From Patescibacteria group bacterium (GTDB lineage Bacteria; Patescibacteriota; Saccharimonadia; UBA4664; SCTI01), in contig SCTI01000001.1 of assembly GCA_004297735.1 (NCBI GenBank), forward strand, positions 190,435 to 254,434: 64,000 bases of DNA, read 5' to 3'. Positions 9,922 through 62,321 of this stretch are shown one piece after another; position 1 is the first letter of the stretch, and each line of letters begins with the position of its first letter. A model generated the notes under the pieces. That model was not told the origin of the DNA, searched no databases, and saw only the letters and a list, made by a program, of their open reading frames with translations. Position numbers and translations under genes: made by a program.

Positions 9922-10827
9922 ATGCAAAAAATTGTTCCACATCTGTGGTTTGACACGCAGGCCAAAGAAGCGGCTGAGTTTTATGTAAAGGTGTTTCCTG
10001 ACTCAAAGATTATTAGCAGTAGTGTAATCAAAAATACTCCTAGCGGGGACTGCGATATCATGTCGTACTCACTAGGGGGCTATAGGTTTATGGCGATTAG
10101 TGCCGGGCCTGCCTTTAAAATTAATTCGTCGATTTCATTTATGGTTAACTTTGACCCCAGTCGCGACGATAAGGCCAGGGAGCATTTAGACGAGTTATGG
10201 GAGGCCTTGAGCCAAGGTGGCGAGGTAATGATGCCGCTGGACAAATACCCATACAGCGAACGTTATGGCTGGGTGCAAGATCGTTTTGGTGTGAGCTGGC
10301 AGCTGATTTTAACCGATCCGGAAGGCGAGCCGAGACCGTTTATTGTGCCAACTCTGCTGTTTAATGGCGAAGCTACCAATAAAGCGGCCGAAGCAATTAA
10401 GTTTTACTTATCGGTATTTAAGGATTCAAAAATGGGAACCGAAGCTCCCTACCCAGAGGATAACGGCCCAGCCAAGAAAGGCTCCCTTATGTTTGCCGAC
10501 TTTATGCTAGAAAATCAGTGGTTTGCAGCGATGGATGCCGGCGTTGAGATGTCATCACCTTTTAACGAGGCGGTGTCGTTGCTGGTTAATGCCGAGGATC
10601 AGGCGGAGATTGATTATTACTGGGACAAGCTTAGTGCCGTGCCGCAAGCCGAGCAGTGCGGCTGGCTGAAGGATCAGTTTGGCGTATCTTGGCAGGTGGT
10701 ACCAACCGCCATGAGCAAGATGATGTCAGAGGCTACGCCAGAACAAGCTCAGCGCGTAACTCAAGCCTTTTTGAAGATGAAGAAGTTCGATATTGCGAAG
10801 TTGGAGTCGGCTTACGAGGGGAAGTAG
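9922..10827 (+). CDS. VOC-superfamily protein, PhnB-like, two tandem domains
   Basis: 301 aa. N-terminus MQKIVPHLWFDTQAKEAAEFYVKVF is typical of the PhnB/3-demethylubiquinone-9 3-methyltransferase-like glyoxalase-fold family. A second copy begins near IVPTLLFNGEA. Confidence 0.65.
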   Translation: MQKIVPHLWFDTQAKEAAEFYVKVFPDSKIISSSVIKNTPSGDCDIMSYSLGGYRFMAISAGPAFKINSSISFMVNFDPSRDDKAREHLDELWEALSQGGEVMMPLDKYPYSERYGWVQDRFGVSWQLILTDPEGEPRPFIVPTLLFNGEATNKAAEAIKFYLSVFKDSKMGTEAPYPEDNGPAKKGSLMFADFMLENQWFAAMDAGVEMSSPFNEAVSLLVNAEDQAEIDYYWDKLSAVPQAEQCGWLKDQFGVSWQVVPTAMSKMMSEATPEQAQRVTQAFLKMKKFDIAKLESAYEGK

Positions 10828-13346: not shown

Positions 13347-14204
13347 ATGGTTAAATGCGGTGAGGTTTTGGGCAAAGTAGGAGCTGTTTTTGGTTTTGGC
13401 GTAGTCATGGTCGTTGGTTCGGCGGTTTTGATTTATGGGCCAGGTGGCATACTGTCGCAAAAAACTGTTGTTAAAACCGGTCCCGTTCCGGTCACAGTCA
13501 ATCAGCAGAGCGACCCTACAGACTCAACCACGGAAAGCCCGAACCCAAGCACCGAACCCAGCCCGGACCAGGCCTATGAATGGGTCAACTCACAGGTAAA
13601 TCCCTACTCAACCTATTACGCTAGTTACCGCCGAAGCAGCAATGCTACTACTGCCACCGTCGTGACGACCACCTCGACGTCAGTAACCAACACCGATACA
13701 GAATCCGAGCCAACTCCGCCGCCGGCACCGGTCTATTACGATGTTACCCGCACCGGTGCCTACAAGTACACTCCGGCCGAGGTTGAGGCTGGTGTGACAG
13801 CGACGAACCCGTCTTACTTTACCCGTACCGGCAACAATTTTTACACCACCTTAAAGAGCGGCACTTACGGTGGTGGGTTTCCGGCGGCGCCAGGAGACTA
13901 CTTCTACTTAAATGAGCTGTACTACCAAATTAATATTAATAGTTCGTTAACCTATTTAAATATTGGAACTCATCTTAAATACAAGGATCAAGACATTAAC
14001 TTTTATGTTGATGGTAGTTTAGCCATTAAACTGGTGCTGGTTGAAGATTTAAGCAATCCAGGTGTTGATTTTTATGTAACCAAACAGTACAACTTGCCTC
14101 CTGAGTATTTATGGAACACCGGAACTTACGGCCAGGTTCAAGGCGGCCCGTACATTTTTGATCCGGTTGATATTGCACTACCGGTTAGCTGTTCTGGTTG
14201 CTAA
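13347..14204 (+). CDS. Hypothetical membrane-anchored Ser/Thr-rich protein
   Basis: 285 aa. N-terminal TM helix (VGAVFGFGVVMVVGSAVLIY), low-complexity T/S/P-rich linker, C-terminal CSGC. Confidence 0.4.
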   Translation: MVKCGEVLGKVGAVFGFGVVMVVGSAVLIYGPGGILSQKTVVKTGPVPVTVNQQSDPTDSTTESPNPSTEPSPDQAYEWVNSQVNPYSTYYASYRRSSNATTATVVTTTSTSVTNTDTESEPTPPPAPVYYDVTRTGAYKYTPAEVEAGVTATNPSYFTRTGNNFYTTLKSGTYGGGFPAAPGDYFYLNELYYQININSSLTYLNIGTHLKYKDQDINFYVDGSLAIKLVLVEDLSNPGVDFYVTKQYNLPPEYLWNTGTYGQVQGGPYIFDPVDIALPVSCSGC

Positions 14205-14224
14205 CACGATGTCATTAATAAAGG

Positions 14225-15835
14225 GTGTACAATAGCAGTATGAAGAAGTGGTCGGTCATCGCCATATTAGCAGTTGCCCAGTTTGTAATGATACTGGACG
14301 GCACGGTGATGAATGTTTCGATCTCGACGGTCGCCAAGGATCTTGGCACCAGCATTACCGGGATGCAAACCGCTATTACCCTGTTTGCACTGACCATGGC
14401 CGCGTTTATGCTAACCGGCGGTAAGCTCGGGGAGATTTGGGGTCACAAGCGAGCCTTCACCATTGGCTCAATGATCTACGGCAGCGGCTCGCTAATTACC
14501 GCGGCAGCTCCATCATTGGGCGTCTTGCTGTTTGGCTGGTCACTGGTTGAAGGTCTTGGCGCGGTTTTGGTAATACCGGCAATTGCTTCGCTGGCGGCCG
14601 CCAACTACTCAGGTAAAGACCGAGTGGCAGCGTTTTCGCTGATTGGGGCGGCTACCGGCTTAGCGGCGGCGGTTGGCCCGATTATTGGCGGCTTTGTAAC
14701 AACTTATCTGTCATGGCGTTACGTTTTTGCCGCCGAAACGCTGATAATGATAGTGGTACTTTTGGTGAGTGGTCGAATTGCCGACGCCAAGGTGAGCAAG
14801 GGAGTAAAACTAGACATACCAAGCGTAGTGCTATCGGCAACCGGCATGATCCTGGTGGTGTTTGGAGCTTTGCAGAGCCGGTCCTGGGGCTGGATCCAAC
14901 CGCTAGGCGCGCCAGAAGTCAATGGTCAGGCCATCACCCCTCTGGGTATATCGGTAGTAGCTTATTTGATATTGCTGGGCGTTCTGGTGCTCAAGCTGTT
15001 TTACGATCGACAGGTTCGGCTTGAAAGCGAAAACAAGCAACCTCTACTTAAAGTCTCAATGCTCAAGATTGGCGTACTGCGTAGCGGTTTAACCGTCTTG
15101 ACCGTTCAGTACTTTACCGTTGCCTCAGTCTTCTTTATTGTTCCGGTTTATTTGCAGACCATTCTAGGCTATGACGCGCTGCAAACCGGCCTCAAACTAA
15201 TACCACTATCAATTGGCTTACTGATATTTACGCTGGTGGGTTCGCGCCGCAGCACGGTAATGCCACCACGTCGAATTGTGCGAGCCGGACAGCTAGCGAT
15301 GGCTTTTGGGGCGCTTTTAATCCTTGGCTCAATTAACACCGAGTTAAAGGGAACCATGTTCTGGCTCGGTATGTTTGGCTTGGGGGCCGGCTTTGGGCTG
15401 CTGGCCTCGCAGCTAGGCAATGTGACCATGTCGGCGGTCGACAAATCGGATACCGGCCAGGTCGGTGGCTTGCAGGGGACCTTCCAGAACCTAGGCCAGT
15501 CGTTTGGTACTGCGGTTGCCGGTTCGATCTTTATTCTCACTCTAACCTCGGGCTTCACCGCGGCGGTGCAGAACAGCCAAAGCTTAACCGAGCAAGCCAA
15601 GACCACCATTACCCAGCAAGCACAGAGTGGTGTCGGCATTGTATCGCAGCAGCAAGCCGAGCAGTACGTGCTAGACCAGGGCGGCACGCAAGCAACCGCT
15701 CAAGAGATATCCGACCTTTATGTTAGTTCTCAGCTTGAGTCACTCCGGACTACTCTAGCAATTATCTTTTTTGGCTTAATTTTGTCGCTAATCTTGTCGG
15801 CTAAATTGCCATCAAAGATGCCTAAAATAGTTTAA
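14225..15835 (+). CDS. MFS transporter, DHA2 (EmrB/QacA, 14-TM) family
   Basis: 536 aa. N-terminus AQFVMILDGTVMNVSISTVAKDLG and motif LTGGKLGEIWGHKRAF are typical of DHA2 drug:H+ antiporters. Confidence 0.8.
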   Translation: MYNSSMKKWSVIAILAVAQFVMILDGTVMNVSISTVAKDLGTSITGMQTAITLFALTMAAFMLTGGKLGEIWGHKRAFTIGSMIYGSGSLITAAAPSLGVLLFGWSLVEGLGAVLVIPAIASLAAANYSGKDRVAAFSLIGAATGLAAAVGPIIGGFVTTYLSWRYVFAAETLIMIVVLLVSGRIADAKVSKGVKLDIPSVVLSATGMILVVFGALQSRSWGWIQPLGAPEVNGQAITPLGISVVAYLILLGVLVLKLFYDRQVRLESENKQPLLKVSMLKIGVLRSGLTVLTVQYFTVASVFFIVPVYLQTILGYDALQTGLKLIPLSIGLLIFTLVGSRRSTVMPPRRIVRAGQLAMAFGALLILGSINTELKGTMFWLGMFGLGAGFGLLASQLGNVTMSAVDKSDTGQVGGLQGTFQNLGQSFGTAVAGSIFILTLTSGFTAAVQNSQSLTEQAKTTITQQAQSGVGIVSQQQAEQYVLDQGGTQATAQEISDLYVSSQLESLRTTLAIIFFGLILSLILSAKLPSKMPKIV

Positions 15836-15890
15836 AGATAGGGGATATCCGGCTTTCCAGCTATAATAACTATATAAGCGGAGGCGCAGC

Positions 15891-16304
15891 ATGAAGGGAC
15901 CAATCGACTATATTATTGTTGGTTTTGAGGGCAACAAATTTGATGGCAGTGTCTTAAAGGCACTTAGCCAGGCCATTGATGACGGCGTGATCGCCTTAAT
16001 TAACCTGCTAGTGATTACCCGCGACGATAAAGACAACGTAACCGTCGTTGATGTGGCTGATTTTGACGGAGAAACGGCCGCCTTCATTAAGCAGTACCAG
16101 CCTCAGCAAACCACCGTTGACCAAGACGACATTGATGAGGTCGCCGACTTGATTGAAAAAAATTGTTCGGCCGGCATGCTGGTTATTGAGCAGCTTTGGG
16201 CAAAACCGCTTAAAAAGGCTCTTTTGGACGCAAACGGCGTGTTACTGGCCGAGGGACGGATTCACCCCGAAGCCGCAATTGAATTAGAGGGTAAAGGAGA
16301 ATAA
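15891..16304 (+). CDS. Hypothetical protein, partner of the SHOCT protein
   Basis: 137 aa, acidic. Separated by 2 nt from the downstream SHOCT-domain ORF. Confidence 0.45.
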   Translation: MKGPIDYIIVGFEGNKFDGSVLKALSQAIDDGVIALINLLVITRDDKDNVTVVDVADFDGETAAFIKQYQPQQTTVDQDDIDEVADLIEKNCSAGMLVIEQLWAKPLKKALLDANGVLLAEGRIHPEAAIELEGKGE

Positions 16305-16306
16305 CT

Positions 16307-16558
16307 ATGCCAGGATTACTACGAGGAGTTGCCCGTACCGCGGTCATTTCGGGCACCGCCACAGCTGTATCTAACCGCGTAAGTCGGAGGCAAGCCCAAA
16401 AGTGGAGCGGCGAGCAGAGTCAGCAGCCAACCCAGGCGGTTGAGCCGGCTCAAGATGACTTAACCGCTCAGCTAGAGCAGCTAGCAGCGTTAAAAGATAA
16501 AGGCATTTTGACCCAAGAAGAGTTTGACGCTAAAAAGAAGCAAATCTTAGGACTGTAG
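16307..16558 (+). CDS. SHOCT-domain protein
   Basis: 83 aa. C-terminal LAALKDKGILTQEEFDAKKKQILG matches the SHOCT consensus. Confidence 0.6.
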   Translation: MPGLLRGVARTAVISGTATAVSNRVSRRQAQKWSGEQSQQPTQAVEPAQDDLTAQLEQLAALKDKGILTQEEFDAKKKQILGL

Positions 16559-16598
16559 CAAGCAAGCTAGCGTATAATGCTTATGCTACAATCGAAAT

Positions 16599-17360
16599 AT
16601 GAGTAACCAAAAAATAGCCTCCCTGATAAAACTAAATTGGACTGCAGCAGCACTGCATTTAGCGCAGGGCATAGCGATTGTGGCTTTAAGCCGCGACTTT
16701 ACTTTGCCAATCTCGGTTAGCTTTTTACAGTTTAACCCCGCCACGCAAAACCTTGAGCCAACCTCGACTCCATTGTTCGACTTATCGCTACCGTGGCTGG
16801 TGGCATTATTCTTGTTCCTGTCTTTCCTGGCACACTTAACCATTGTTACCGTTTATCGTCATCGATACGTGGCTGATTTGCAAAAGGGCATCAACAAAGC
16901 TCGCTGGATAGAGTACAGTCTGTCGGCTTCGGTAATGATTGTAGCTATCGGATTACTCGTCGGTATCTATGATATAGCCAGCTTAATCGCCCTGTTTGGG
17001 TTGATAGCAATCATGAATCTATGCGGCCTGATTATGGAAGTCCACAATCAGACAACCAAGAACACTAACTGGCTAAGCTACTGGGTAGGCTGCCTGGCGG
17101 GGATAATTCCCTGGGTGATGATTGCGATTTACCTCTGGGCCGGAGCCGACAACGGCAGCCAGGCGCCAACCTTTGTTTACTGGATATTTGTTTCCATTTT
17201 TGTATTCTTTAACTGTTTTGCAATTAATATGTTTCTGCAGTACAAAAAGATTGGGCCATGGGCTAACTATCTTTACGGCGAAAAAGTATACGTCATTTTA
17301 AGTCTTGTCGCCAAATCAGCTTTAGCTTGGCAGGTATTTGCCGGAACATTGCGACCCTAG
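16599..17360 (+). CDS. Heliorhodopsin
   Basis: 253 aa, 7 TM. Blocks highly similar to characterised heliorhodopsin 48C12 (from memory): RWIEYSLSASVMIV (counterion Glu in RW-EYS), GCLAGIIPW, YVILSLVAKSALAWQVFAGTL with the Schiff-base Lys in LVAKSALAWQ. Conserved His in TM1 (AALHLAQ) and TM2 (FLAHLTIV). Confidence 0.85.
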   Translation: MSNQKIASLIKLNWTAAALHLAQGIAIVALSRDFTLPISVSFLQFNPATQNLEPTSTPLFDLSLPWLVALFLFLSFLAHLTIVTVYRHRYVADLQKGINKARWIEYSLSASVMIVAIGLLVGIYDIASLIALFGLIAIMNLCGLIMEVHNQTTKNTNWLSYWVGCLAGIIPWVMIAIYLWAGADNGSQAPTFVYWIFVSIFVFFNCFAINMFLQYKKIGPWANYLYGEKVYVILSLVAKSALAWQVFAGTLRP

Positions 17361-17367
17361 CCAGCTG

Positions 17368-17670
17368 CTATTCATTAGATTTAGATCTGCGATTGCTAAA
17401 CCGTTGCTGACGACGCTTAACAGTAACCGTAATAAAGGTGGTTACAATCCCTACGCCAACCAGTATATAAAAAGTAGTGAACAGCTTACCGATATCGGTT
17501 TTTGTTACTAAGTCGCCGTAGCCAACCGTGGTCAGCGTTATCACGCTAAAGTAGTAGGCGTTCAACCAGCTAAATCTCTCTATATAGTGATAAAAAACGG
17601 TGCCAATCGCAATTGTGCTAACGGCGCCCAGTAAAATTAAGCGATAGGCATATTTGCTAATGTCATGCAT
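17368..17670 (-). CDS. Minimal two-TM K+ channel (TVGYGD selectivity filter)
   Basis: 100 aa. TM1, pore helix, TTVGYGD, TM2, and a basic C-tail (KRRQQRFSNRRSKSNE). Confidence 0.8.
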   Translation of the reverse strand: MHDISKYAYRLILLGAVSTIAIGTVFYHYIERFSWLNAYYFSVITLTTVGYGDLVTKTDIGKLFTTFYILVGVGIVTTFITVTVKRRQQRFSNRRSKSNE

Positions 17671-17737
17671 GGTTTAATTATGACATACTAGTAGGCAAAT
17701 CAAGTTTAATTTATTAATTAGATAGGGAGAAATTATT

Positions 17738-18172
17738 ATGAGCAATATTAGAACCAATCCATACCTGTTTTTTAAAGGAAACGCCCTTGAGGCAATGAAG
17801 TTTTATCAGAGCGTGTTTGGCGGTGAGCTTGATACCAAAACTTACGCCGATTTTCACGTTCCGGCCGAAGGCGACTTAAAAGATGACAGTATTATGCATG
17901 CCTCATTAAATGGTGGCGATGTGGTGTTGATGGCTAGCGACACCAACCTGGCTAGCCCCAAGGCCGCCAAGATAACGATATCGCTTAACGGTGATGCCGA
18001 CAGTGAGGCGCGATTAACCGAGGTTTTTAAACTGCTTAGCGATGGCGCCGAGGTACAAACCCCACTCAAAAAAGAGATGTGGGGCGATCTTTACGGTAGC
18101 CTAACCGATAAGTACGGCATTGACTGGATGATTAATATTGAGTCCGGAGCAAAAGAGGGCGCGGCTAGCTAA
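17738..18172 (+). CDS. VOC/glyoxalase-fold family protein (PhnB/YjdN-like)
   Basis: 144 aa. N-terminus NPYLFFKGNALEAMKFYQSVFGGEL and C-terminus KYGIDWMIN are typical of the family. Confidence 0.6.
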   Translation: MSNIRTNPYLFFKGNALEAMKFYQSVFGGELDTKTYADFHVPAEGDLKDDSIMHASLNGGDVVLMASDTNLASPKAAKITISLNGDADSEARLTEVFKLLSDGAEVQTPLKKEMWGDLYGSLTDKYGIDWMINIESGAKEGAAS

Positions 18173-18812
18173 CCGGCTTGCCCATCGATTTAATTTTTAG
18201 TTGATCGGCTTTGGGTTGGCGACGGACAATTACGTAATAGCCTAGCAGGGTTAAGGACGGAAGCGCCATCAGCAGCATCTGCGATAGCTGCGGGAGCGCT
18301 ATAAATCGCTGAAGCCAGTCTGGAACCGAAACTCCAGCCAGACGGCTGACGTGCAAAGTGTATTCACTCACCAGTTTTGGTATGGCCATAGTAACTAAAA
18401 TTGCGGCGGCCACTGCCGGTGAGGTGATTAGTGTGCTCTGGCGCGACCATCGGGTGTAGAGGGCGTAGAAAAGATAAAAGTCGAGGAACAGATTAGGAAA
18501 GAAAAACAGCACATACTCTAAGCCTGTACCAATAAAGATGATCACTCCAATTAAACGCCAGCCAATCAGGGCGTAAGCAATTTTCTTGGCGCGTGCATCG
18601 GCCCACTTACGAACGGTCAGTCCCATTATTAGCAAAAAGTAAGTGTCAAGCAGCTTATCGACCACCTGGTAGTTATGGTACCCAATAAAAGAGCTGCCGA
18701 TTATCTGGTAGTCGTAGGCGTCCAATGCCATGCTAGCTGCCACGCCGGTTAAGGGCCAGCGCAGAATCAACAGCGGTGCCAGAAGTCGGAGTATAACTAT
18801 CAGCGCAAGCAT
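18165..18812 (-). CDS. Hypothetical polytopic membrane protein
   Basis: 215 aa with 6 or more hydrophobic helices. No recognised motif. Confidence 0.45.
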   Translation of the reverse strand: MLALIVILRLLAPLLILRWPLTGVAASMALDAYDYQIIGSSFIGYHNYQVVDKLLDTYFLLIMGLTVRKWADARAKKIAYALIGWRLIGVIIFIGTGLEYVLFFFPNLFLDFYLFYALYTRWSRQSTLITSPAVAAAILVTMAIPKLVSEYTLHVSRLAGVSVPDWLQRFIALPQLSQMLLMALPSLTLLGYYVIVRRQPKADQLKIKSMGKPVS

Positions 18813-18906: not shown

Positions 18907-19371
18907 ATGGAGCGCGCATCGCCGGGCCTCATCTCCCGCTTCGGAGTCATGCGAAGCATCGTGGCGTTCATCGCCATCGTCGCCGCCCTGGTCGGTCTGA
19001 TCGTCTTCGCGATCACGGGCGTCGAGCCGAATGCCATCGGGACCGCGTTCATGGTCCTCGGCGCCGTCGGCATCACCATCGGTCTGCTCGTCGCCTTCGG
19101 CGGCAGCGAGGCTGGGGTGGTCCTCATGAGCACCGTCATCGCCGTCCTGGTCACCATGGCCGCGAAGACGACCCTCGGGTACACCTCCGTGATCATGGAG
19201 GTCGGGCTGATGGCCCTGATCGGGGCCACTTCCGCTGCCGTCTTCTCCTGGCACCGTCGCCGGCGCCTGAACGCGGCGAGCTGGTTCGACATCGGTGGCG
19301 TCACCCAGATCACGCCGATGAACCTCAAGAAGCCGAACCTCCCGCCCGTTCCGCTTCACCAGCAGGTCTAG
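18907..19371 (+). CDS. Hypothetical 4-TM membrane protein (very high-GC islet)
   Basis: 154 aa in the only sensible frame, with four hydrophobic helices. About 66% GC. Other frames give Arg-rich nonsense. Confidence 0.5.
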   Translation: MERASPGLISRFGVMRSIVAFIAIVAALVGLIVFAITGVEPNAIGTAFMVLGAVGITIGLLVAFGGSEAGVVLMSTVIAVLVTMAAKTTLGYTSVIMEVGLMALIGATSAAVFSWHRRRRLNAASWFDIGGVTQITPMNLKKPNLPPVPLHQQV

Positions 19372-19455: not shown

Positions 19456-20001
19456 ATGGTTTACGTAGCATTACTTCGCGGCATCAATGTCGGCGGCAAC
19501 AACAAAGTAGAGATGGCCAAGCTAAAGCTGACCTTTGAGCAGCTAGGCTTTACCAAAGTTAAAACCTACATTAATTCCGGAAATATTATATTTGAAGGGC
19601 CTGATCAAAATCACCTGCAGCTAGCCTCACAAATTGAGGCTGCGATTACAAAAGATTTTGGCCTCAATATACCGGTGGTTTTACGTAACCTTAAGCAGAT
19701 ACAAGCAATCTGCAAAGCCATGCCTGAGACTTGGGTTAACAACTCGGTCATGAAGTGTGATGTACTGTTTTTGTGGGAAGAGGTTGATAACAAGTCGGCA
19801 CTTGAGGCAATGTCGGTTAAACGCGATATTGTTGACTTAAAGTACGTCCCAGGAGCAGTTATCTGGAGAATTGACAAGGAAAATGTCACTCGTGGTGGTA
19901 TCGATAAATTTATTGCGGCACCAATTTACAAGAAAATCACGATCAGAAACTGCAATACCGTCCGTAAGCTAAAGACTCTTATGGAAGAAGCCGCTCACTA
20001 A
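19456..20001 (+). CDS. DUF1697 family protein
   Basis: 181 aa. N-terminus MVYVALLRGINVGGNNKVEMAKLKLTFEQLGF is the conserved DUF1697 start. Confidence 0.65.
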   Translation: MVYVALLRGINVGGNNKVEMAKLKLTFEQLGFTKVKTYINSGNIIFEGPDQNHLQLASQIEAAITKDFGLNIPVVLRNLKQIQAICKAMPETWVNNSVMKCDVLFLWEEVDNKSALEAMSVKRDIVDLKYVPGAVIWRIDKENVTRGGIDKFIAAPIYKKITIRNCNTVRKLKTLMEEAAH

Positions 20002-20515
20002 ACTTTTGGCGTAGCTTTTCTAGCTTAGGATTAATAATTACCTGACAGTAAGCAGCCTGGGGATTTCTTGCAAAATAGTTCTGATGTTCCGGCTCAGCTG
20101 GGTAAAACTGCTCAAGCGGCTCCAGTTTTGTAACCACTGGATCGCTCCACAGTTTAGCCACCTTTTTAATTGAAGCTTCGGCAATTTTTTTCTGTGCTTG
20201 ATCTAAGTAGAAAATAGCTGATCGGTACTGCGGACCAATATCGGCGCCCTGGCGATTAAGCGTCGTTGGGTTGTGTAGCGCCCAAAATATATCTAAAACG
20301 TCTTCGAGACTGATAATTGATGGGTTGAACTCAACCCTAACCGCCTCGGCATGGCCGGTCTCACCACTGACAACCTGATAGTAGGTTGGATTTAGGGTCT
20401 GGCCTCCGGTATAACCAGAGGTAACGCTGGTGATGCCGTTAATCATTCGAAAAGCCGCATCAATGCACCAAAAGCAGCCGCCCGCCAAAACAATTGATTG
20501 TGATGATGATGTCAT
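19979..20515 (-). CDS. msrA: Peptide-methionine (S)-S-oxide reductase MsrA
   Basis: 178 aa. Active-site GCFWC motif (LAGGCFWCIDAAF). Conserved HDPT/Q-GxD-GxQYRS region. Confidence 0.9.
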   Translation of the reverse strand: MTSSSQSIVLAGGCFWCIDAAFRMINGITSVTSGYTGGQTLNPTYYQVVSGETGHAEAVRVEFNPSIISLEDVLDIFWALHNPTTLNRQGADIGPQYRSAIFYLDQAQKKIAEASIKKVAKLWSDPVVTKLEPLEQFYPAEPEHQNYFARNPQAAYCQVIINPKLEKLRQKFSERLLP

Positions 20516-32156: not shown

Positions 32157-33194
32157 ATGGTTTTAATGAGTCACGCCCACATCGCCCGATTTCCAACTCA
32201 ACCGGCCCGCCGCAAAGCCAACGATCCCGACGCAGCCACCCAGGCCCGAAAACGGATTGCCGAGCTACCGGACCTCTACCAGCAGCACGCTGCTCCAGAC
32301 AAGGAGCAGCTAGTTGGGTTGGTGCAACCTACTAGCATCGCGGCTGAACAGACCGCGCCGACCGGCCTATTGCGCAAGCCACTCCAAACCGCGCCGATTC
32401 TGCCAACAGCTGATGTTGCCATACCGGTTGACCTACCGGGTGAGCACTTTGAGGAGCCAAGTCATTCAATACCCACATGGCGAAAATTATTCGACAAGGT
32501 GCGACCATTTGGCATCGGTATTGCCACCTTCGCCTTACTTTTCTTGGTTTACAAGGCGCCAATCTTTTTAAGCCAAATTAGTTATTTAACCTCGGATAAA
32601 CCGGCCACCGTTTCTACTAACACCACTCCGCAGGTCGGACCCGACCCGGTGATCAGCATACCCAAGATAAACGTCACCGCACCGATAGTGTTTGCAAAGA
32701 GCAATGTGGAGTCGGAAATTCAAAAGGACTTGCAGTCTGGTGTGGTGCACTATGCCAATACCGCCAACCCCGGAGAGCCGGGCAATAGTGTAATATTTGG
32801 TCACTCCTCGAACGACTGGTGGGAGCCAGGTAACTATAAGTTTGTTTTTGTACTGCTAGAGCGCATGGCGGTTGGCGATAGCTTTACGGTTAACTACAAC
32901 TCCCAGCAGTACGTTTACCAGGTAACCGAAACCAAGGTAGTGGAGCCTAACGACTTGAGCGTGCTCAATAGCGACGGGTCACACCAATTAACCTTAATCA
33001 CCTGTACACCACCAGGTACGAGCTGGCGACGCTTTATTGTAAAAGCTAAGCAAATCAGCCCCGAACCAACCACGACTGCGCCAGCGGCCAAATCAACCAG
33101 CGATTTTGACGGCAAGCAGCTTACCGGGACCTCAACCAACCTAACCGATCAGTTAGCAAACTGGTGGCGAAAGGTTACTGGCGGATCTGAATAG
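32157..33194 (+). CDS. Sortase (membrane-anchored transpeptidase)
   Basis: 345 aa. TM segment PFGIGIATFALLFLV. Catalytic His (VIFGHSS) and TLITC motif with the active Cys. Confidence 0.7.
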   Translation: MVLMSHAHIARFPTQPARRKANDPDAATQARKRIAELPDLYQQHAAPDKEQLVGLVQPTSIAAEQTAPTGLLRKPLQTAPILPTADVAIPVDLPGEHFEEPSHSIPTWRKLFDKVRPFGIGIATFALLFLVYKAPIFLSQISYLTSDKPATVSTNTTPQVGPDPVISIPKINVTAPIVFAKSNVESEIQKDLQSGVVHYANTANPGEPGNSVIFGHSSNDWWEPGNYKFVFVLLERMAVGDSFTVNYNSQQYVYQVTETKVVEPNDLSVLNSDGSHQLTLITCTPPGTSWRRFIVKAKQISPEPTTTAPAAKSTSDFDGKQLTGTSTNLTDQLANWWRKVTGGSE

Positions 33195-48636: not shown

Positions 48637-49206
48637 TCAGCTACTGATGACGTCTCCGTCCCCATCGAGGCCCATCTCGACGAGGATTTTGTCCAGGTCG
48701 CCCTCGATCAGCACCGACTCGCGATAGTACGCAAGGAGCTCGGCGCCGCACCGCTCGACCTCTTCCTTGAGAATGACGCCAATCGCCTGCGGGAGGTAGT
48801 CGTTCTTGGGATCCTTGAACAGCCGGAGCAGCTGATCTCGCTCGAGGGCGCCGATTTCGTGCTGCGGCTCGTCCTCCGTTCCGTGATCGAGCCAGGCCAG
48901 CCAGCGGGCCGGGTACTTTGAGGAATCGAGAACCAACAGGATCGAGCCTCTGGCGCTTTCCCCTGGCTGAAGCAACGGTACCCAGGATTGGGCACCACAG
49001 AGCGGAACCACCATCAAGTCTTGAAACCTCGGCTCCTTGATGAACGGCTCGCTGCACGAACCATCGGATTCATCGGTGTATGCCTTCAGCGGTTGCCCGC
49101 CGTGCTCCTTCAAAAATGGGAGCGCTCTCTCTACGACTCGCTCGAGAGCGATCAGATGGAGCTCGGCCTGCTGGTGGGTGTAAGGATCGGTCATGGTAAG
49201 CCTCAC
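48637..49206 (-). CDS. Hypothetical protein co-oriented immediately downstream of the RT gene (candidate retron accessory/effector)
   Basis: 189 aa, about 62% GC, acidic C-terminus (DGDGDVISS). No recognised domain. 100-nt gap to the RT stop. Lies between the RT and the repeat-1 terminator. Confidence 0.45.
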   Translation of the reverse strand: MRLTMTDPYTHQQAELHLIALERVVERALPFLKEHGGQPLKAYTDESDGSCSEPFIKEPRFQDLMVVPLCGAQSWVPLLQPGESARGSILLVLDSSKYPARWLAWLDHGTEDEPQHEIGALERDQLLRLFKDPKNDYLPQAIGVILKEEVERCGAELLAYYRESVLIEGDLDKILVEMGLDGDGDVISS

Positions 49207-49277
49207 TCAGTTGTACTGTCAAAAAGACTGTGTGATTTATACCATATATAAAAGCATATTCAAATAATGGCTGCTTC

Positions 49278-49310
49278 CCGGTTTTGGTCAGATCCGGAAA
49301 CTGATACTAC
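49278..49310. repeat. 33-nt element CCGGTTTTGGTCAGATCCGG(A/T)AACTGATA(C/G)T, copy 1 of 3
   Basis: Also at 52104-52136 and 53467-53499. Each copy sits 0-6 nt 3' of the stop codon of a minus-strand island gene. Confidence 0.7.
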
Positions 49311-50296
49311 CCTCGGAAGAGGCGCTGTAGCCACTCCTCCATGGGGCTGAGCGGAACTTTGGGCCGAGTAATCGGCTTGACGTAGGTGTACTTCCGCCAA
49401 ACCAGCGCCGCCTGACGATCAAACGGAAAGCCGCCAAGGGCTAGGTGCTCACGCAGAGCGCCCATACGGCCCTCTACCACGCCGGGTTCAATTGCCTTGC
49501 CCACGCGATTACTCTTGCCGTTAACCAAGCAATACATGCTGCCCTCTAGGCCCTGCAGCCACTTGCGCGGCAGGTAGATGGCAAAGGCACGATTGATGTC
49601 ATCGCTAGCTTCACCGGCGCTTGGACCGGCACCCAACCTTAGACCGGTGATCATGACCGGGCGACGAGCCACGTCGTAGTAGCCAGTCTTCTTGTAGTTG
49701 AGTCGGAAGCCACTGCGCTTAATGACAGCTCGAATTGCCTCGCGCTTACGACGACCAATCGGCTCCCAGCTCGAAAACACCAGATCGTCGATATAGCGCG
49801 TATAGGTCAGGCTCCAGCGCTCGGCTAGCTCAATCAACGCCTCGTCAAGCTTACGAGCCGCAACCTGGTTGAACAGATCGGTGGCTGCCGGCGTACCGGT
49901 CATTAGCCCTCGGCCACGAGGAGTGGCCAGGTAGCGACGAACGAAATCCTCCATGCCTACCTGATCTACCCAAAGCTCTGACTTTACTTCAGCCAGAACC
50001 GGATACAGCCACTCGGGGCGAACCGACGGGTAGGCGTTGTACAGATCCAACTTGTAAACGTAGTGGTTACCCCAATGCTGCATAGCGCAACGAACGGCTG
50101 AGCCACCACGTACACCACCAAAGTTATGTGATGGGATGCCAAGCTGTAAGCGTGTTTCGCGGATAACCTGGGCATGCACCTCGCGCATGGCTGCATTGGG
50201 CACAAACACCTCGCGCCGTTTACCGCCATTGCGACCGTTGATGAATCGGCGCTCCGTTGCAGGAGGCGCCGTAATGCTACGGGTCTCCTTAGACAT
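49307..50296 (-). CDS. Reverse transcriptase, retron-type (small stand-alone RT)
   Basis: 329 aa. RT motifs: SHNFGGVRGGSAVRCAMQH (retron-like HxF..GRS...NA..H block), motif A YKLDLYNAYPSV, motif C YIDDLVF (encoded 49784-49795), and PVMITGLRLG corresponding to the retron VTG motif. No maturase/En domains. RBS GGAGG 7 nt upstream. Confidence 0.75.
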   Translation of the reverse strand: MSKETRSITAPPATERRFINGRNGGKRREVFVPNAAMREVHAQVIRETRLQLGIPSHNFGGVRGGSAVRCAMQHWGNHYVYKLDLYNAYPSVRPEWLYPVLAEVKSELWVDQVGMEDFVRRYLATPRGRGLMTGTPAATDLFNQVAARKLDEALIELAERWSLTYTRYIDDLVFSSWEPIGRRKREAIRAVIKRSGFRLNYKKTGYYDVARRPVMITGLRLGAGPSAGEASDDINRAFAIYLPRKWLQGLEGSMYCLVNGKSNRVGKAIEPGVVEGRMGALREHLALGGFPFDRQAALVWRKYTYVKPITRPKVPLSPMEEWLQRLFRG

Positions 50297-50765
50297 TGCG
50301 CCTCCAATTGTAAAAGTATTATCGTGACGACCCGGCGGGGTCTGGAGAAAGACGACAACATGGGTTTACCGGGCCGTGCGCCCTCGCTGCGGCGCGCCCG
50401 AGTGGCGGTCACCGGCCTGCGGAGCAGACCAGCTGCTCTTCTGCCACGAGCGCTCACGCGCCGCGGATGAAGAACCGGCCACCTCATCGTGCCGCAGCCT
50501 GCGCTGGAGCTCCCGCGTACGAGAGCCTATAGACCACCTACACGCTACGGAATGGCTACCGCGTTGGCGGAGTGGCTACCGCTCGTTTGCGTCAGTTGGC
50601 CCAACCTCGTCGTTTGAACGACCAGGCACTGGTGTTAGGACGGTTGTCGACCTTACATCTCCAGACCCCACCTATAGGGTGTCACTACTTACCGAACACC
50701 TATCGGTAGCGTCATGATAGCAGGCCTGTGCATATGGAGGCAATATTAGTTACCTTAAAACTTCA
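50297..50765 (-). ncRNA. Candidate retron msr/msd non-coding RNA region (GC-rich 5' leader of the RT gene)
   Basis: 469 nt with no plausible ORF (all frames Arg-rich nonsense). About 64% GC. Multiple local palindromes (GGAGCTCC, GAGCAGctggtCTGCTC, CACCCTATAGGTGG). Confidence 0.3.
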
Positions 50766-50804
50766 ACGCCCCGCTAGCTACATGCCGGCGGGGCGCTTTT
50801 ATTC
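50766..50804. terminator. Bidirectional hairpin terminator, copy 2 of the identical 39-nt repeat
   Basis: Identical to 48590-48628. Separates gene 50799..51476 from the RT unit. Confidence 0.65.
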
Positions 50805-51476
50805 AACTGAGCCCCACATGTGGAGCTTGACCGAATTCTGAGGACGCTTCAAGATCTGCTCACGCCAAACGAAGTCAGGGTGGAGCTGGCCTTTCTGCCT
50901 AAGAACCAGACAGACCGTATCTACCAGCTCGTTCCAGCGGATGTTGTAGTTCTCGAGGTAGGGGAGAAGCCGCGCGATCGTCACCCGCGGCGGCGCCTCT
51001 AGCGTGCGCTTGTAAAAGCGGCAAATTTCGTACTCGTCGCTGCCGGCTTTAAGCGCGTGCTCCAGTGTGATCTGAAGTCGCTGGTTACGGCGGCACACAT
51101 CAAGGAGCTGCTCCAGACTGAGCGGGAAGTATGCCATTTCGGCCAAGGCATACTCGCACCAATCGCGCACAAACTGGCGACGGGCCACCCCAAAAGCAGT
51201 GACCTGCGTTTTGGCCTCATCTAGGTGCTCGCTAATCTGCGCTAGATTGAGCTGCACCAGGCCGGGCTTAGAGCCCAGCTTGCGGTAGAAGAGATGGCTG
51301 TCGGGCCGGCTACTAAAGTAGCGGGCGGCGGCGTTAAACGCACCTTTAGCCAGCTTAGTCCGGCCGTTTGCGACGTTAAACCTTACCGCGTCATCCATGG
51401 TGGCCCAAAGCTCCACGCTACTACTAGTGCCGCCAAGCGTCGAGAAGCTGGTAAAGCCAGAAGGAGTGCTGTGCAT
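50799..51476 (-). CDS. Hypothetical protein (island gene)
   Basis: 225-aa ORF, about 60% GC, no recognised domain. Confidence 0.4.
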   Translation of the reverse strand: MHSTPSGFTSFSTLGGTSSSVELWATMDDAVRFNVANGRTKLAKGAFNAAARYFSSRPDSHLFYRKLGSKPGLVQLNLAQISEHLDEAKTQVTAFGVARRQFVRDWCEYALAEMAYFPLSLEQLLDVCRRNQRLQITLEHALKAGSDEYEICRFYKRTLEAPPRVTIARLLPYLENYNIRWNELVDTVCLVLRQKGQLHPDFVWREQILKRPQNSVKLHMWGSVE

Positions 51477-52103
51477 AGATTATTCCTCAATCTCGCTGTC
51501 AAAGAAGAAGGACGGCCGAAGCCGTCCCGTGTACACCTCCATACGGAGATGGCGCCGGCCTAAGGGTGCTCTCGGACACCCAGAGGCCTACTCAGTGTTT
51601 CTTTATCCCCCTGAGTTACCGGGGTTTATTTTCGGCTTACCGAGAGTTACCGTCCAGCAACACTACAATTAGATGCAGGAGGTGGATACCCCTAACAAAC
51701 TGACGCTTCCACACTACCCCTAGGAGGTAGCGCGTCAGGCTGACTGGTACTACCATCCACCTGTGAGGTCAGCTCTCCAACTTGCCGCTGATTTACGTCG
51801 CAGCGACTATCAGGTGCAGAGGTGGCTCGAGGCGTGGTCTCGTTAACCTTTCGAGCTTGGCTTATGCCTTGCCCTTGGCACGAGCAACATCGCTGTTGCC
51901 ACTGTTTGAGATACTATCATTTTATGTGTTTTTGTCAACATGCCAAAGAGTCTCGAGTGAGTCGATTTATTACCGATTATTCAAAGCACAAAATTGCCGA
52001 GCTATTTTCGCAGGCGGTGGATTTGCATAAAACTTAAACCAGTTTTAGTTGTGCAGTTTCGTCCTTTTGGACTCGTCAGAACACATACACATGTATTGAC
52101 TGC

Positions 52104-52136
52104 TCCGGTTTTGGTCAGATCCGGTAACTGATAGTG
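52104..52136. repeat. 33-nt element, copy 2
   Basis: CCGGTTTTGGTCAGATCCGGTAACTGATAGT. Lies 3 nt 3' of the stop of 52139..53386. Confidence 0.7.
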
Positions 52137-52138
52137 GT

Positions 52139-53386
52139 TTAGGCCCTAAGTGCCCCCGTGGCGCGATAGGCCTCGAGCCACCTCTCGTTATAGAACCAGT
52201 CAGGCACATATGCACTCTCGATTTCGCCCTCGCTAGAGAGCACCTGGTGGGCCCAGACGCACCGACCCTCGCTGCCGCGAACGCGACTTCCAAAGCCGCT
52301 GTTTACCCGTAGACCTGCCTTTTCGGCAACCACTTCGGGATACCGATAGGGACCGTCAAAGCCGCCGCTGACACTCAGGTAGAGGTCGTCCAGTTCGCAC
52401 ACAGCCAGGACCAATCGCTGGATCTCAGCAATCCCCTCAAGACTCAAGCAACGAGTCCGCGAGGCATGAACCGTGATCGAGGAGCCAGCGGCGTAAAACG
52501 GATGGTTGACGTTTGTCCAGCCCCTCAGAGACTGGTCGTCTTCATCGTCCCGCAACGACCCTTCTGGCGGCAGAACCGCCTGAACAGCCATACCGCGAAT
52601 CAGAGCGGAGGTGTGCCCATTGATCAGCCCAACTGAGATCTTATCTCGGCTCATGACCGGGTGATACCCGGGCACGATACTGAGATCAAGGCCACCACCT
52701 GGCTTAAACAGGCCGTGCCACAGCCTGAATGACCGCTCTGAGTCACCGATCTCAAAGGTGACCAGCTGCAACCAGTCGTAACTCCATCGCCCACTAAGCG
52801 AGTGGGTGATGCCGATCTCTTGGATCTTGGGATGGTCAAGTGCTACAAGTAGTGCCGCTTCAAGGCTATTGACCGCAGCGAACACCACTTCGATTTGAAG
52901 CTGTTCCAGGGCCTCAGCCAGCATTCCAACCGACATGCAGTTGAAGACCGGATTCGGAACGTATGTATTGAGTGTTCGCAGCGACAGCCAGTGCGAAGAG
53001 CGACCAATCCGAGACCGGTGTAGCGGGCCACATGTGTGGTAACGGCTCACCCAGTAGCGCTGGGTATGACTAGCGATCCGGCGCAACGCCCACAGGTGCT
53101 GCTGTCCGGTTGTGCCCGGAAGCATTATCACTGCGCTTACCTGGTAGAGGTGGTCGAGGAGCACCCGTGCAACAGGTGCGCCATCGCGATAAAGCTTGAC
53201 CTCAAGCGAGCGACAAAAGTAGCGCCACTCCAGATCATCCTCGGCGTACTCGAAAGCAAGCTGAGGGTTCTTCACTCCCATATAGGGCAGCGATGGGTTA
53301 CGACCGCGGCTGCGTTGCCACATGCCGTGCAGCAGGACGTACTCGGCGGAACCTGGTTCGTGTCCTTTCAAGATACTCTTTTTCAC
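52139..53386 (-). CDS. Hypothetical protein (island gene), C-terminal half weakly resembles the PNP/MTA-nucleosidase phosphorylase fold
   Basis: 415 aa. Segment VFAAVNSLEAALLVALDHPKIQEIGITHSLSG loosely resembles the glycine-rich nucleoside-phosphorylase family-1 core. The assignment is tentative. Confidence 0.4.
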   Translation of the reverse strand: MKKSILKGHEPGSAEYVLLHGMWQRSRGRNPSLPYMGVKNPQLAFEYAEDDLEWRYFCRSLEVKLYRDGAPVARVLLDHLYQVSAVIMLPGTTGQQHLWALRRIASHTQRYWVSRYHTCGPLHRSRIGRSSHWLSLRTLNTYVPNPVFNCMSVGMLAEALEQLQIEVVFAAVNSLEAALLVALDHPKIQEIGITHSLSGRWSYDWLQLVTFEIGDSERSFRLWHGLFKPGGGLDLSIVPGYHPVMSRDKISVGLINGHTSALIRGMAVQAVLPPEGSLRDDEDDQSLRGWTNVNHPFYAAGSSITVHASRTRCLSLEGIAEIQRLVLAVCELDDLYLSVSGGFDGPYRYPEVVAEKAGLRVNSGFGSRVRGSEGRCVWAHQVLSSEGEIESAYVPDWFYNERWLEAYRATGALRA

Positions 53387-53466
53387 TTCTAATCCTTATG
53401 ACGAGATGGACAAAGAATGACTTATTATACAATTTATTATAATTAAATTCAAATAATTCAGCTTCA

Positions 53467-53499
53467 CCGGTTTTGGTCAGATCCGGTAACTGATAGTGC
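53467..53499. repeat. 33-nt element, copy 3
   Basis: CCGGTTTTGGTCAGATCCGGTAACTGATAGT. Lies 5 nt 3' of the stop of 53504..53917. Confidence 0.7.
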
Positions 53500-53503
53500 G
53501 GGC

Positions 53504-53917: not shown

Positions 53918-54025
53918 TGCCCCTCCTTTGGTACAGGAAGGATTCTTTTACCTTCGTGCGAAATATATTACCATAAGTTCTTTATTTTGTCAACATATCT
54001 GCCAGATATAAAGAGTGATAATTCC

Positions 54026-54100
54026 TGGTAGTCCCACGGGGACTCGAACCCCGGTTACTGGAATGAGAATCCAGCGTCCTAACCACTAGACGATGGGACC
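54026..54100 (-). tRNA. tRNA-Glu (anticodon CUC)
   Basis: Reverse complement GGTCCCA-TC-GTC TAGTGGTTAG GAC-G-CTGGA TTCTCAT TCCAG-TAAC-CGGGG TTCGAGT CCCCG-TGGGACT-A-CCA. Anticodon CUC. Confidence 0.8.
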
Positions 54101-56040: not shown

Positions 56041-56098
56041 TTACAGTTGATCAGGTTAGAGATTATTGTTATGCTTTGATTAAAAGGACTATTCAATA

Positions 56099-62259: not shown

Positions 62260-62321
62260 TAACCTGATTGTACCAAATATTGGCGTTGTCGATTAATCAA
62301 AAAACTAGTAATATAACCTTT

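What the first reader, a model, noticed from the sequence alone, without database searches (positions are those of the whole stretch)
16599..17360. Heliorhodopsin gene in a streamlined genome with no visible retinal-synthesis genes
The 253-aa protein matches the heliorhodopsin signature almost block for block: RWIEYSLSASVMIV, GCLAGIIPW, and SLVAKSALAWQVFAGTL with the Schiff-base lysine. No carotenoid or blh-like retinal-synthesis gene is present anywhere in the 64 kb. If the organism is an episymbiont or CPR-type cell, the chromophore would have to come from a host or the environment. Heliorhodopsin function is still poorly understood.
Basis: partly seen in the sequence, partly recalled or inferred. 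Interest (0 to 1): 0.75.

Follow-up and report, generated by a model that had tools for sequence, protein, structure and literature searches.

The report
Heliorhodopsin gene in a Saccharibacteria genome
The gene is a genuine, intact heliorhodopsin (a light-sensing membrane protein) in a tiny-genome Saccharibacteria/CPR bacterium that probably borrows its retinal pigment from outside, but both the gene family in this lineage and the borrowed-pigment idea are already published, so it is an ordinary member of a known kind.

Summary
ORF 16599-17360 (+) encodes a 253-aa protein that matches the heliorhodopsin (HeR) profiles over their full length (Pfam PF18761 E=1.8e-98; NCBIfam NF038020 332 bits, cut-off 100). 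It is 57% identical to the crystallised archaeal TaHeR. Every functional residue is kept: Schiff-base K239 in an SLVAK motif, counterion E105, H20/H79, and the lateral-fenestration residues. An AlphaFold model superposes on TaHeR at TM-score 0.87-0.90.

The exact protein is already in GenBank as a "hypothetical protein" of a Patescibacteria MAG. Its closest relatives in GTDB genomes are overwhelmingly Saccharibacteria.

The whole genome could not be checked.

The finding is not new. Chiriac et al. 2022 catalogued 80 HeRs in Saccharimonadia. An exogenous retinal supply was proposed for TaHeR and for Saccharibacteria type-1 rhodopsins (Jaffe et al. 2022).

The most likely function is a non-transporting, slow-cycling light sensor or regulator loaded with scavenged retinal. 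The partner is unknown, because the gene neighbourhood is not conserved across 80 related loci. Interest is low.

The parts
16599..17360 (+). Heliorhodopsin coding sequence (253 aa plus TAG stop); identical to GenBank TAK89720.1 / EPO04_01280
   Evidence: ORF list; Pfam PF18761 E=1.8e-98; NCBIfam NF038020 332.5 bits; 100% match to P0001
17313..17315 (+). Codon of K239, the retinal Schiff-base lysine (TM7, motif S235-L-V-A-K239)
   Evidence: Aligns to TaHeR K238 and 48C12 K241; invariant in 80 of 80 Saccharibacteria-type HeRs
16911..16913 (+). Codon of E105, the single Schiff-base counterion (TM3)
   Evidence: Aligns to TaHeR E108 and 48C12 E107; invariant 80 of 80
16656..16658 (+). Codon of H20 (TaHeR H23 / 48C12 H23), part of the cytoplasmic-side His pair
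   Evidence: His in 79 of 80 sequences, the remaining one a gap
16833..16835 (+). Codon of H79 (TaHeR H82 / 48C12 H80), second His of the pair
   Evidence: invariant 80 of 80
17079..17222 (+). Stretch holding the lateral-fenestration / putative carotenoid-site residues Y161, C165, G168 (TM5) and F204, N205, A208 (TM6)
   Evidence: Mapped to 48C12 F162, C166, G169, F206, N207, A210 and TaHeR Y164, N204, A207. The residue list comes from bioRxiv 10.1101/2025.11.27.691015. G168, F204 and A208 are invariant; position 161 is always Y or F
16701..16787 (+). A-B loop beta-hairpin (residues 35-63), a heliorhodopsin-specific extracellular element
   Evidence: AlphaFold2 model has strands 35-46 and 51-63, pLDDT above 90; the A-B loop is described as unique to HeRs in PMC9385722
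16573..16578 (+). Perfect TATAAT hexamer 21 nt upstream of the ATG, in the 40-nt gap after the SHOCT gene; a possible own promoter -10 box (inference only)
   Evidence: Read from the sequence. The consensus promoter scan found no more sites than the shuffles and did not report this one, because it has no good -35 box
17368..17670 (-). Context only: convergent 100-aa two-TM K+ channel (TVGYGD filter); its stop codon lies 7 nt from the HeR stop codon
   Evidence: Pfam Ion_trans_2 5.8e-19. A homologue is near the HeR in only 1 of 80 related loci, so no functional link is supported
15891..16558 (+). Context only: DUF6325 (15891-16304) and SHOCT-domain (16307-16558) genes directly upstream on the same strand
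   Evidence: Pfam hits; not conserved next to HeR in relatives

Best explanation
The ORF encodes a functional heliorhodopsin of a Saccharibacteria (CPR/Patescibacteria) bacterium. Shown here: it is a full-length member of the HeR family. It has seven helices, the HeR-specific A-B beta-hairpin and the B-C loop helix. Its charge distribution predicts the inverted N-in/C-out topology. It carries the retinal-binding lysine K239 (SLVAK), the single counterion E105, the H20/H79 pair and a complete set of lateral-fenestration residues. No carotenoid or retinal biosynthesis gene lies in the 64 kb. Inferred from characterised relatives (TaHeR at 57% identity, 48C12 at 49%): all-trans-retinal, made by another organism, enters the apoprotein through the fenestration between TM5 and TM6. 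For Saccharibacteria the source is most plausibly an actinobacterial host or the surrounding community. The retinal forms a protonated Schiff base with K239. Green light isomerises it and starts a slow, seconds-long photocycle without net ion transport. The long-lived intermediate signals through the cytoplasmic face to one or more partner proteins, as shown for glutamine synthetase, photolyase and an ABC exporter in other HeRs. In this lineage the output is probably a general light or photo-oxidative-stress response. The partner is not identifiable from gene order.
For: Family membership. Residue mapping: H20, H79, E105, S235, K239, plus Y161, C165, G168, F204, N205, A208. Conservation: K239, E105, H79, G168, F204 and A208 are invariant in the window protein plus 79 HeRs from GTDB genomes, mostly Saccharibacteria, which argues for selection on chromophore binding. 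Fold: AlphaFold2 pLDDT 87.3, pTM 0.85, with 7 TM helices, a beta-hairpin and a B-C helix; Foldseek TM-score 0.87-0.90 to TaHeR against 0.66 or less for type-1 rhodopsins. Topology: 11 K/R in the predicted cytoplasmic segments against 2 in the extracellular ones. Non-transporting type: the hallmark Glu/Trp of the proton-transporting viral HeRs (V2HeR3 E191/W195) are I200/F204 here, and I/L and F in all 80 relatives (PMC9448325). No retinal pathway in the window. Literature: the TaHeR host lacks retinal synthesis and the fenestration was proposed to capture exogenous retinal (PMC9385722). Saccharibacteria with rhodopsins lack blh, and co-occurring Actinobacteria supply the blh potential (PMC9296517). 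80 HeRs were catalogued in Saccharimonadia with SLVAK as a common motif (PMC9166423). HeRs are proposed as sensory switches linked to oxidative-stress defence in monoderms (PMC8612252). The local context fits loosely: a VOC/glyoxalase-fold gene at 17738-18172 and msrA at 19979-20515.
Against: No experiment exists on this protein or on any Saccharibacteria HeR that I found. Retinal binding, spectrum, photocycle and absence of transport are all extrapolated. Only 64 kb of a contig of at least 273 kb was visible, so retinal genes elsewhere in the genome are not excluded. The gene neighbourhood is not conserved: no window neighbour recurs next to HeR in the 80 loci. The commonest neighbour cluster, ABC ATPases, accounts for 19 of 1493 ORFs, which I judge (from general knowledge, not tested here) to be about the share any stretch of genome would give. 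So neither the partner nor the oxidative-stress link is supported statistically here. The close relatives include MAGs whose isolate names suggest activated sludge, soil and a sulfidic cave (titles; habitats inferred from the names only), so some carriers may see little light.
Confidence: 0.7

Rival explanations
1. The genome makes its own retinal with genes that lie outside the 64-kb window, so the HeR is an ordinary self-sufficient photoreceptor.
For: Only 64 kb of a 273-kb contig, itself part of a genome that is probably about 0.8 Mb, was inspected. The remaining contig could not be fetched.
Against: No such gene is in the window. Published surveys found no blh in rhodopsin-bearing Saccharibacteria genomes that were 79-98% complete (PMC9296517). 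CPR genomes generally lack isoprenoid and carotenoid pathways (general knowledge). The fenestration residues proposed to admit exogenous retinal are conserved.
Confidence: 0.07
2. The protein is a light-driven or light-gated proton transporter like the viral heliorhodopsin V2HeR3, giving the cell an energy or ion-flux function.
For: Some HeRs do transport protons (PMC9448325). Saccharibacteria are known to use type-1 rhodopsin proton pumps (PMC9296517).
Against: The hallmark residues of the transporting HeRs are absent. V2HeR3 E191 corresponds to I200 and W195 to F204, and the positions are I/L and F in all 80 relatives. The protein is 57% identical to TaHeR. No ion transport was detected for TaHeR, and its extracellular half is hydrophobic (stated in PMC9448325).
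Confidence: 0.05
3. The HeR mainly serves as a two-antenna light harvester. It binds an exogenous xanthophyll at the fenestration in addition to retinal, as recently proposed for HeRs in monoderms.
For: All residues of the proposed carotenoid-binding site are present (Y161, C165, G168, F204, A208, plus N205). The opposing aromatic pair and G168 are conserved in 80 of 80 relatives. The proposal is in bioRxiv 10.1101/2025.11.27.691015.
Against: That proposal rests on structure comparison and docking, not on measured carotenoid binding or energy transfer in a HeR. It does not by itself give an output function and is compatible with the sensor model rather than an alternative to it.
Confidence: 0.12
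4. The gene is a chromophore-less relic or has a light-independent role, because the cell cannot obtain retinal or lives in the dark.
For: No retinal genes are in the window. Some relatives come from MAGs whose isolate names suggest sludge, soil and a cave (habitats inferred from the names only).
Against: The ORF is intact. The Lys, the counterion and the retinal-pocket residues are invariant across 80 diverged sequences (59-75% identity), which indicates purifying selection on retinal binding.
Confidence: 0.05

Closest known systems
TaHeR, heliorhodopsin of Thermoplasmatales archaeon SG8-52-1 (PDB 6is6, 7u55, 7clj)
   Same: Closest characterised protein: 57% identity over 237 residues, E=3e-83, model TM-score 0.87-0.90. 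It shares H23, H82, E108, S234, K238 and the fenestration residues Y164, N204, A207. Its host also lacks retinal synthesis, and the fenestration was proposed to capture exogenous retinal (PMC9385722).
   Different: TaHeR is archaeal and this protein is bacterial (CPR). This protein has four extra residues in the TM5-TM6 loop (alignment). No biochemical data exist for this protein.
Heliorhodopsins of Saccharimonadia / CPR catalogued by Chiriac et al. 2022 (PMC9166423)
   Same: Same lineage and same family. That study reports 80 HeRs in Saccharimonadia and lists SLVAK as one of the most common TM7 motifs, exactly the motif found here. My scan of GTDB genomes found 305 relatives, and 57 of the best 80 are labelled Saccharibacteria.
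   Different: I could not confirm that this particular genome is in their table, because the supplement search found none of the search terms. The nearest sequence in public data other than itself is 81% identical, so at the sequence level this is a distinct member.
SacR, type-1 proton-pumping rhodopsins of freshwater Saccharibacteria (Jaffe et al. 2022, PMC9296517)
   Same: Same host phylum. The same logic applies of a retinal protein without blh, with rapid uptake of external retinal and a proposed supply from actinobacterial hosts.
   Different: SacR belongs to a different family with the opposite topology and is an outward H+ pump with a DTS motif. The window protein has no Bac_rhodopsin match and only 10-16% identity and TM-score of 0.66 or less to type-1 structures. 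No SacR-type gene is in the window.
HeR 48C12 (actinobacterial fosmid; PDB 6su3, 6uh3), founding member of the family
   Same: 49% identity. Same key residues H23, H80, E107, S237, K241 and fenestration residues F162, C166, G169, F206, N207, A210.
   Different: 48C12 N138 and Q213 are I136 and M211 here. The window protein is clearly nearer to TaHeR.
Regulatory HeRs with identified partners: AbHeR-glutamine synthetase (PMC9529153), TfHeR-photolyase (PMC9769723), OcHeR-OmrDE ABC exporter (PMC11109279)
   Same: Same family. They provide the working model of a non-transporting HeR that modulates a partner protein in the light.
   Different: In those cases the partner gene sits in the HeR operon. 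Here no glutamine synthetase, photolyase or ABC transporter gene is adjacent, and no neighbour is conserved among 80 related loci.

Membership tests
Heliorhodopsin (Pfam PF18761 / NCBIfam NF038020) | Full-length match to the family profile above the curated cut-off | tested here: met
   PF18761: 329.2 bits against cut-off 26.7, profile positions 2-242 of 242. NF038020 equivalog: 332.5 bits against cut-off 100.
Heliorhodopsin (Pfam PF18761 / NCBIfam NF038020) | Retinal Schiff-base lysine in TM7 within an SxxxK motif | tested here: met
   S235-L-V-A-K239 aligns to TaHeR S234/K238 and 48C12 S237/K241. K is invariant in 80 of 80 sequences.
Heliorhodopsin (Pfam PF18761 / NCBIfam NF038020) | Single Glu counterion in TM3 and the conserved His pair | tested here: met
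   E105, H20 and H79 align to TaHeR E108, H23, H82 and are conserved in 79-80 of 80 sequences.
Heliorhodopsin (Pfam PF18761 / NCBIfam NF038020) | Seven TM helices with a long A-B beta-hairpin and a helical B-C loop; fold superposable on solved HeRs | tested here: met
   AlphaFold2 model: helices 3-30, 64-83, 100-120, 126-153, 158-184, 191-214, 224-251; strands 35-46 and 51-63; helix 87-95. TM-score 0.87-0.90 to 6is6/7u55 and 0.84-0.85 to 48C12.
Heliorhodopsin (Pfam PF18761 / NCBIfam NF038020) | Inverted topology (N-terminus cytoplasmic, C-terminus outside) | tested here: met
   This is a prediction only. Positive-inside count: 11 K/R in the N-terminus plus the B-C, D-E and F-G loops, against 2 in the A-B, C-D, E-F loops and the C-terminus.
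Heliorhodopsin (Pfam PF18761 / NCBIfam NF038020) | Binds all-trans-retinal, absorbs visible light, slow photocycle | not testable with these tools
   Needs expression and spectroscopy.
Heliorhodopsin (Pfam PF18761 / NCBIfam NF038020) | Host is a monoderm, the reported distribution of HeRs | tested here: inconclusive
   The window has a sortase (32157-33194), a WecG/TagA-type transferase and no outer-membrane marker, but 64 kb cannot establish envelope type. HeRs restricted to monoderms: PMC8612252.
Proton-transporting heliorhodopsins (V2HeR3 group) | Glu at the V2HeR3 E191 position and Trp at the W195 position in TM6 | tested here: not met
   I200 and F204 here; I/L and F in all 80 relatives. 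Feature definition from PMC9448325.
Type-1 microbial rhodopsin (Bac_rhodopsin PF01036; SacR) | Profile match and DxxxK in TM7, N-out topology | tested here: not met
   Heliorhodopsin is the only Pfam family matched at E<=0.1. TM7 motif is SxxxK. Type-1 structures score TM 0.66 or less with 10-16% identity.
Retinal-auxotrophic rhodopsin system (as TaHeR host, SacR-bearing Saccharibacteria) | No blh/brp, carotenoid oxygenase or crtEBIY genes near the opsin gene | tested here: met
   None among 76 ORFs in the 64 kb at E<=0.001. None at E<=1 in ten ORFs without a Pfam hit.
Retinal-auxotrophic rhodopsin system (as TaHeR host, SacR-bearing Saccharibacteria) | No such genes anywhere in the genome | not testable with these tools
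Literature reports absence in other Saccharibacteria (PMC9296517).
Retinal-auxotrophic rhodopsin system (as TaHeR host, SacR-bearing Saccharibacteria) | Lateral fenestration that admits external retinal | tested here: met
   Tested at sequence level only. Y161, C165, G168, F204, N205 and A208 equal the TaHeR and 48C12 fenestration residues (list). Uptake kinetics are not testable.

The most novel reading that the evidence does not exclude
In an episymbiont that cannot make retinal, the heliorhodopsin would become photoactive only when the cell touches a retinal- or carotenoid-producing host. The protein would then report host contact and light together: the chromophore, acquired through the outward-facing fenestration, acts as a host-derived licensing signal. 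It could thereby gate attachment-stage physiology. My evidence does not exclude this. The retinal pocket and fenestration are under strong conservation in 80 Saccharibacteria-type HeRs, no retinal genes are nearby, and no fixed operon partner exists. Nothing here specifically supports it either.
Probability: 0.08. Interest if true: 0.6.

Novelty: already known. Interest (0 to 1): 0.2.

Why it matters
Heliorhodopsin function and chromophore supply in ultra-small episymbiotic bacteria are still open at the experimental level. This sequence is one more clean, intact candidate for expression and retinal-uptake assays, and its 57% identity to the crystallised TaHeR makes it easy to model. It adds no new kind of system. 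The family, its abundance in Saccharibacteria, the lack of retinal synthesis and the host- or environment-supply hypothesis are all in print. The practical value is a corrected annotation: GenBank calls it 'hypothetical protein', whereas current NCBIfam would name it 'heliorhodopsin HeR'. A second result is negative: gene order around Saccharibacteria HeRs is too variable to reveal a partner.

Tried and rejected
1. Fetching the rest of the contig to scan for blh and crt genes failed. The look-up of encoding contigs had no record of the exact HeR protein, of P0001, or of the Dus-family gene at 62268-63287.

2. I looked for a conserved operon partner.
- A BLAST of all window proteins against ORFs of 80 related loci found no recurrent neighbour.
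- De novo clustering of 1493 flanking ORFs gave ABC ATPase (17 loci), cupin (10), thioredoxin-reductase-like (8), RmuC (7), an unknown membrane protein (7), a large cluster not scanned against Pfam (6) and SDR (6).
- ABC ATPases make up only 19 of 1493 ORFs, which I take to be roughly genome background; I did not compute that background. The others look like sub-clade synteny. I therefore rejected a specific partner.

3. A link between the HeR and the convergent K+ channel was rejected. A channel homologue occurs in only 1 of 80 loci, and there it lies 6 kb from the HeR.

4. Recent horizontal acquisition of the HeR was rejected. Its GC (0.455, z=-1.1) and GC3 (z=-0.4) lie within the window's spread. 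BipA, a helicase and a lipase are syntenic with the HeR on Saccharibacteria contigs L034 and L047.

5. The promoter and terminator scan of 14000-18300 found no more sites than the shuffles. Only a lone TATAAT at 16573-16578 was seen by eye.

6. A search of the Chiriac et al. supplements for this genome or the SLVAK motif found no occurrences in the held files.

7. A homology search on the GC3-rich ORF 18907-19371 found only the protein itself.

Full report
**Observation.** The three quoted sequence blocks lie at residues 102-115, 164-172 and 235-251 (sequence printed). Pfam gives one family, Heliorhodopsin PF18761, at E=1.8e-98 over the whole profile. NCBIfam's equivalog model NF038020 'heliorhodopsin HeR' scores 332.5 bits against a cut-off of 100. 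All six PDB sequence matches are heliorhodopsins, led by TaHeR (6is6, E=3e-83) and 48C12 (6su3, E=1e-60).

**Anatomy.** Pairwise alignment gives 57% identity to TaHeR and 49% to 48C12.
- The functional residues map as follows: H20 = TaHeR H23, H79 = H82, E105 = E108 (counterion), S235 = S234 and K239 = K238 (Schiff base).
- The residues that line the lateral fenestration in solved HeRs are all matched. In 48C12 these are F162, C166, G169, F206, N207 and A210; in TaHeR they are Y164, N204 and A207 (bioRxiv 10.1101/2025.11.27.691015). Here they are Y161, C165, G168, F204, N205 and A208.
- I aligned the window protein with 79 HeRs from GTDB species-representative genomes. K239, E105, H79, G168, F204 and A208 are invariant. 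Position 161 is always Tyr or Phe.
- An AlphaFold2 model (pLDDT 87.3, pTM 0.85) shows seven helices, the long A-B beta-hairpin (strands 35-46 and 51-63) and the short B-C helix (87-95). These are HeR hallmarks (PMC9385722).
- Foldseek places the model on TaHeR at TM-score 0.87-0.90 and on 48C12 at 0.84-0.85. Type-1 rhodopsins reach 0.66 at most, with 10-16% identity.
- Lys and Arg counts are 11 in the segments predicted to be cytoplasmic and 2 in the extracellular ones. This fits the inverted N-in topology.

**Organism.**
- The identical protein is GenBank TAK89720.1, 'hypothetical protein EPO04_01280 [Patescibacteria group bacterium]', on a 273,427-bp contig. A neighbouring ORFan carries the same organism label.
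- A scan of one genome per GTDB species found 305 relatives. Of the best 80 (59-75% identity), 57 are labelled Saccharibacteria, Saccharimonas, Saccharimonadales or Saccharimonadia. Most of the rest are other CPR or unnamed bacteria.
- On the Saccharibacteria-labelled contigs L034 and L047, BipA (66%), a helicase (53%) and a lipase (44%) lie near the HeR. BipA is 73% identical on L068, an unnamed bacterium MAG. These genes lie 4-11 kb from the HeR in the window. The assignment therefore does not rest on the HeR alone.
- Window content is typical of the group: 93% of bases fall in ORFs. There is a sortase, MreB, a type-IV pilin signal, aminoacyl-tRNA synthetases and many ORFs without a family.
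- Closed chromosomes of relatives are about 0.78 Mb.

**Retinal supply.** I scanned all 76 ORFs of at least 70 aa against Pfam.
- No Blh/Brp (PF15461), RPE65-type oxygenase, phytoene synthase, phytoene desaturase, lycopene cyclase or polyprenyl synthase was found.
- The 'Serglycin' hits are artefacts of my Gly-Ser linker.
- A permissive rescan of ten ORFs that had no Pfam hit, including the unannotated membrane proteins, also found nothing relevant.
- The rest of the genome could not be retrieved. Genome-wide absence therefore rests on the literature. Jaffe et al. found no blh in rhodopsin-bearing Saccharibacteria and attributed the community's blh potential mainly to Actinobacteria (PMC9296517). 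For TaHeR, the fenestration was proposed to capture exogenous retinal because its host also lacks the pathway (PMC9385722).

**Mechanism.** The nearest characterised relatives, TaHeR and 48C12, showed no ion transport and have slow photocycles. This led to a sensory interpretation (summarised in PMC9448325).
- The proton-transporting viral HeRs need a Glu at V2HeR3 position 191 and have Trp at 195. Here these positions are I200 and F204, and they are I/L and F in all 80 relatives.
- I therefore favour a non-transporting light sensor or regulator that is loaded with scavenged retinal.
- Known partners in other HeRs (glutamine synthetase, photolyase, ABC exporter) are not adjacent here.
- The local genes are an MFS efflux-type transporter, DUF6325, a SHOCT-domain gene, then the HeR. 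Next come a convergent 100-aa K+ channel, a VOC/glyoxalase-fold protein, two unannotated membrane proteins, DUF1697 and MsrA.
- The VOC protein and MsrA fit loosely with the photo-oxidative-stress idea of Bulzu et al. (PMC8612252). However, none of these neighbours recurs next to HeR in the 80 related loci.
- De novo clustering of 1493 flanking ORFs shows only sub-clade synteny, plus ABC ATPases at a frequency I take to be near genome background.
- The partner is therefore unknown. The HeR probably acts in trans on non-adjacent targets.

**Novelty.** Chiriac et al. 2022 screened 1326 CPR genomes and found 98 HeRs, 80 of them in Saccharimonadia. SLVAK was among the commonest TM7 motifs, and they discussed an oxidative-stress role (PMC9166423). 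Host- or environment-derived retinal is published for Saccharibacteria type-1 rhodopsins and for TaHeR. An exogenous second chromophore for HeRs has also been proposed. The finding is thus a correct identification of a known family in a lineage where it is known to be common. The only local addition is a corrected annotation and the negative result on neighbourhood conservation.

**Verdict.** Novelty is 'already known' and interest is low (0.2).

Noticed in passing
window 48637-54100, centred on 49307-50296 (-): A 329-aa reverse transcriptase (Pfam RVT_1 1e-10) best matches PADLOC retron-type RT models (RT_III-A 1.7e-24, RT_VI 5e-24). It sits among four ORFs with no Pfam or PADLOC hit, in a GC-richer block (0.575-0.63 against a window mean of 0.52), next to tRNA-Glu at 54026-54100. 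This may be an integrated retron or defence island in a CPR genome. No msr/msd RNA was sought.
   Followed up: partly
window 18907-19371 (+): A 154-aa predicted membrane ORF has GC 0.665 and GC3 0.916 (z=+3.8 against the window's genes). Frame-shifted ORFs overlap it on both strands. The only match among the 5.8 billion non-redundant database proteins is itself (EPO04_01300). It is a compositionally foreign ORFan 1.5 kb from the HeR; its origin is unexplained.
   Followed up: partly
window 17368-17670 (-): A minimal 100-aa two-TM K+ channel (TVGYGD selectivity filter, Ion_trans_2 5.8e-19) lies convergent with the HeR, with 7 nt between the two stop codons. The arrangement is not conserved next to HeR in relatives.
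   Followed up: yes
L021 and L063 (both on contig DASTXH010000031.1): One Saccharimonadales MAG carries two heliorhodopsin genes about 54 kb apart on the same contig (67% and 65% identical to the window protein). HeR paralogy therefore occurs in these small genomes.
   Followed up: no
window 9922-10827 (+) and 17738-18172 (+): There are two VOC/glyoxalase-fold, PhnB/YjdN-like genes. One is a tandem double-domain protein (3-dmu-9_3-mt family, 4e-69). The other is a single-domain protein just downstream of the HeR/K+ channel pair. msrA lies at 19979-20515. Together these form a loose cluster of stress or detoxification genes around the HeR.
   Followed up: partly
window 7405-7947 (+): A DUF3800 protein (Pfam 5e-12) has a weak PADLOC DUF3800_VII hit (2e-5) and low GC (0.40). 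It lies right after tRNA-Gln (7311-7385) and may be another small mobile or defence insertion.
   Followed up: no
whole window: Gene-level GC ranges from 0.38 to 0.67 around a mean of 0.52 (sd 0.056). This is an unusually mosaic composition for a small genome and suggests frequent gene gain.
   Followed up: no
window 54232-56542 (+): A PAS-HisKA-HATPase histidine kinase and a stand-alone response regulator lie 37 kb from the HeR. Distant homologues of both (27-33% identity) lie within 10 kb of the HeR in 7 and 9 of the 80 related loci. This echoes the HeR/two-component association reported by Bulzu et al., but the link is not close here.
   Followed up: partly
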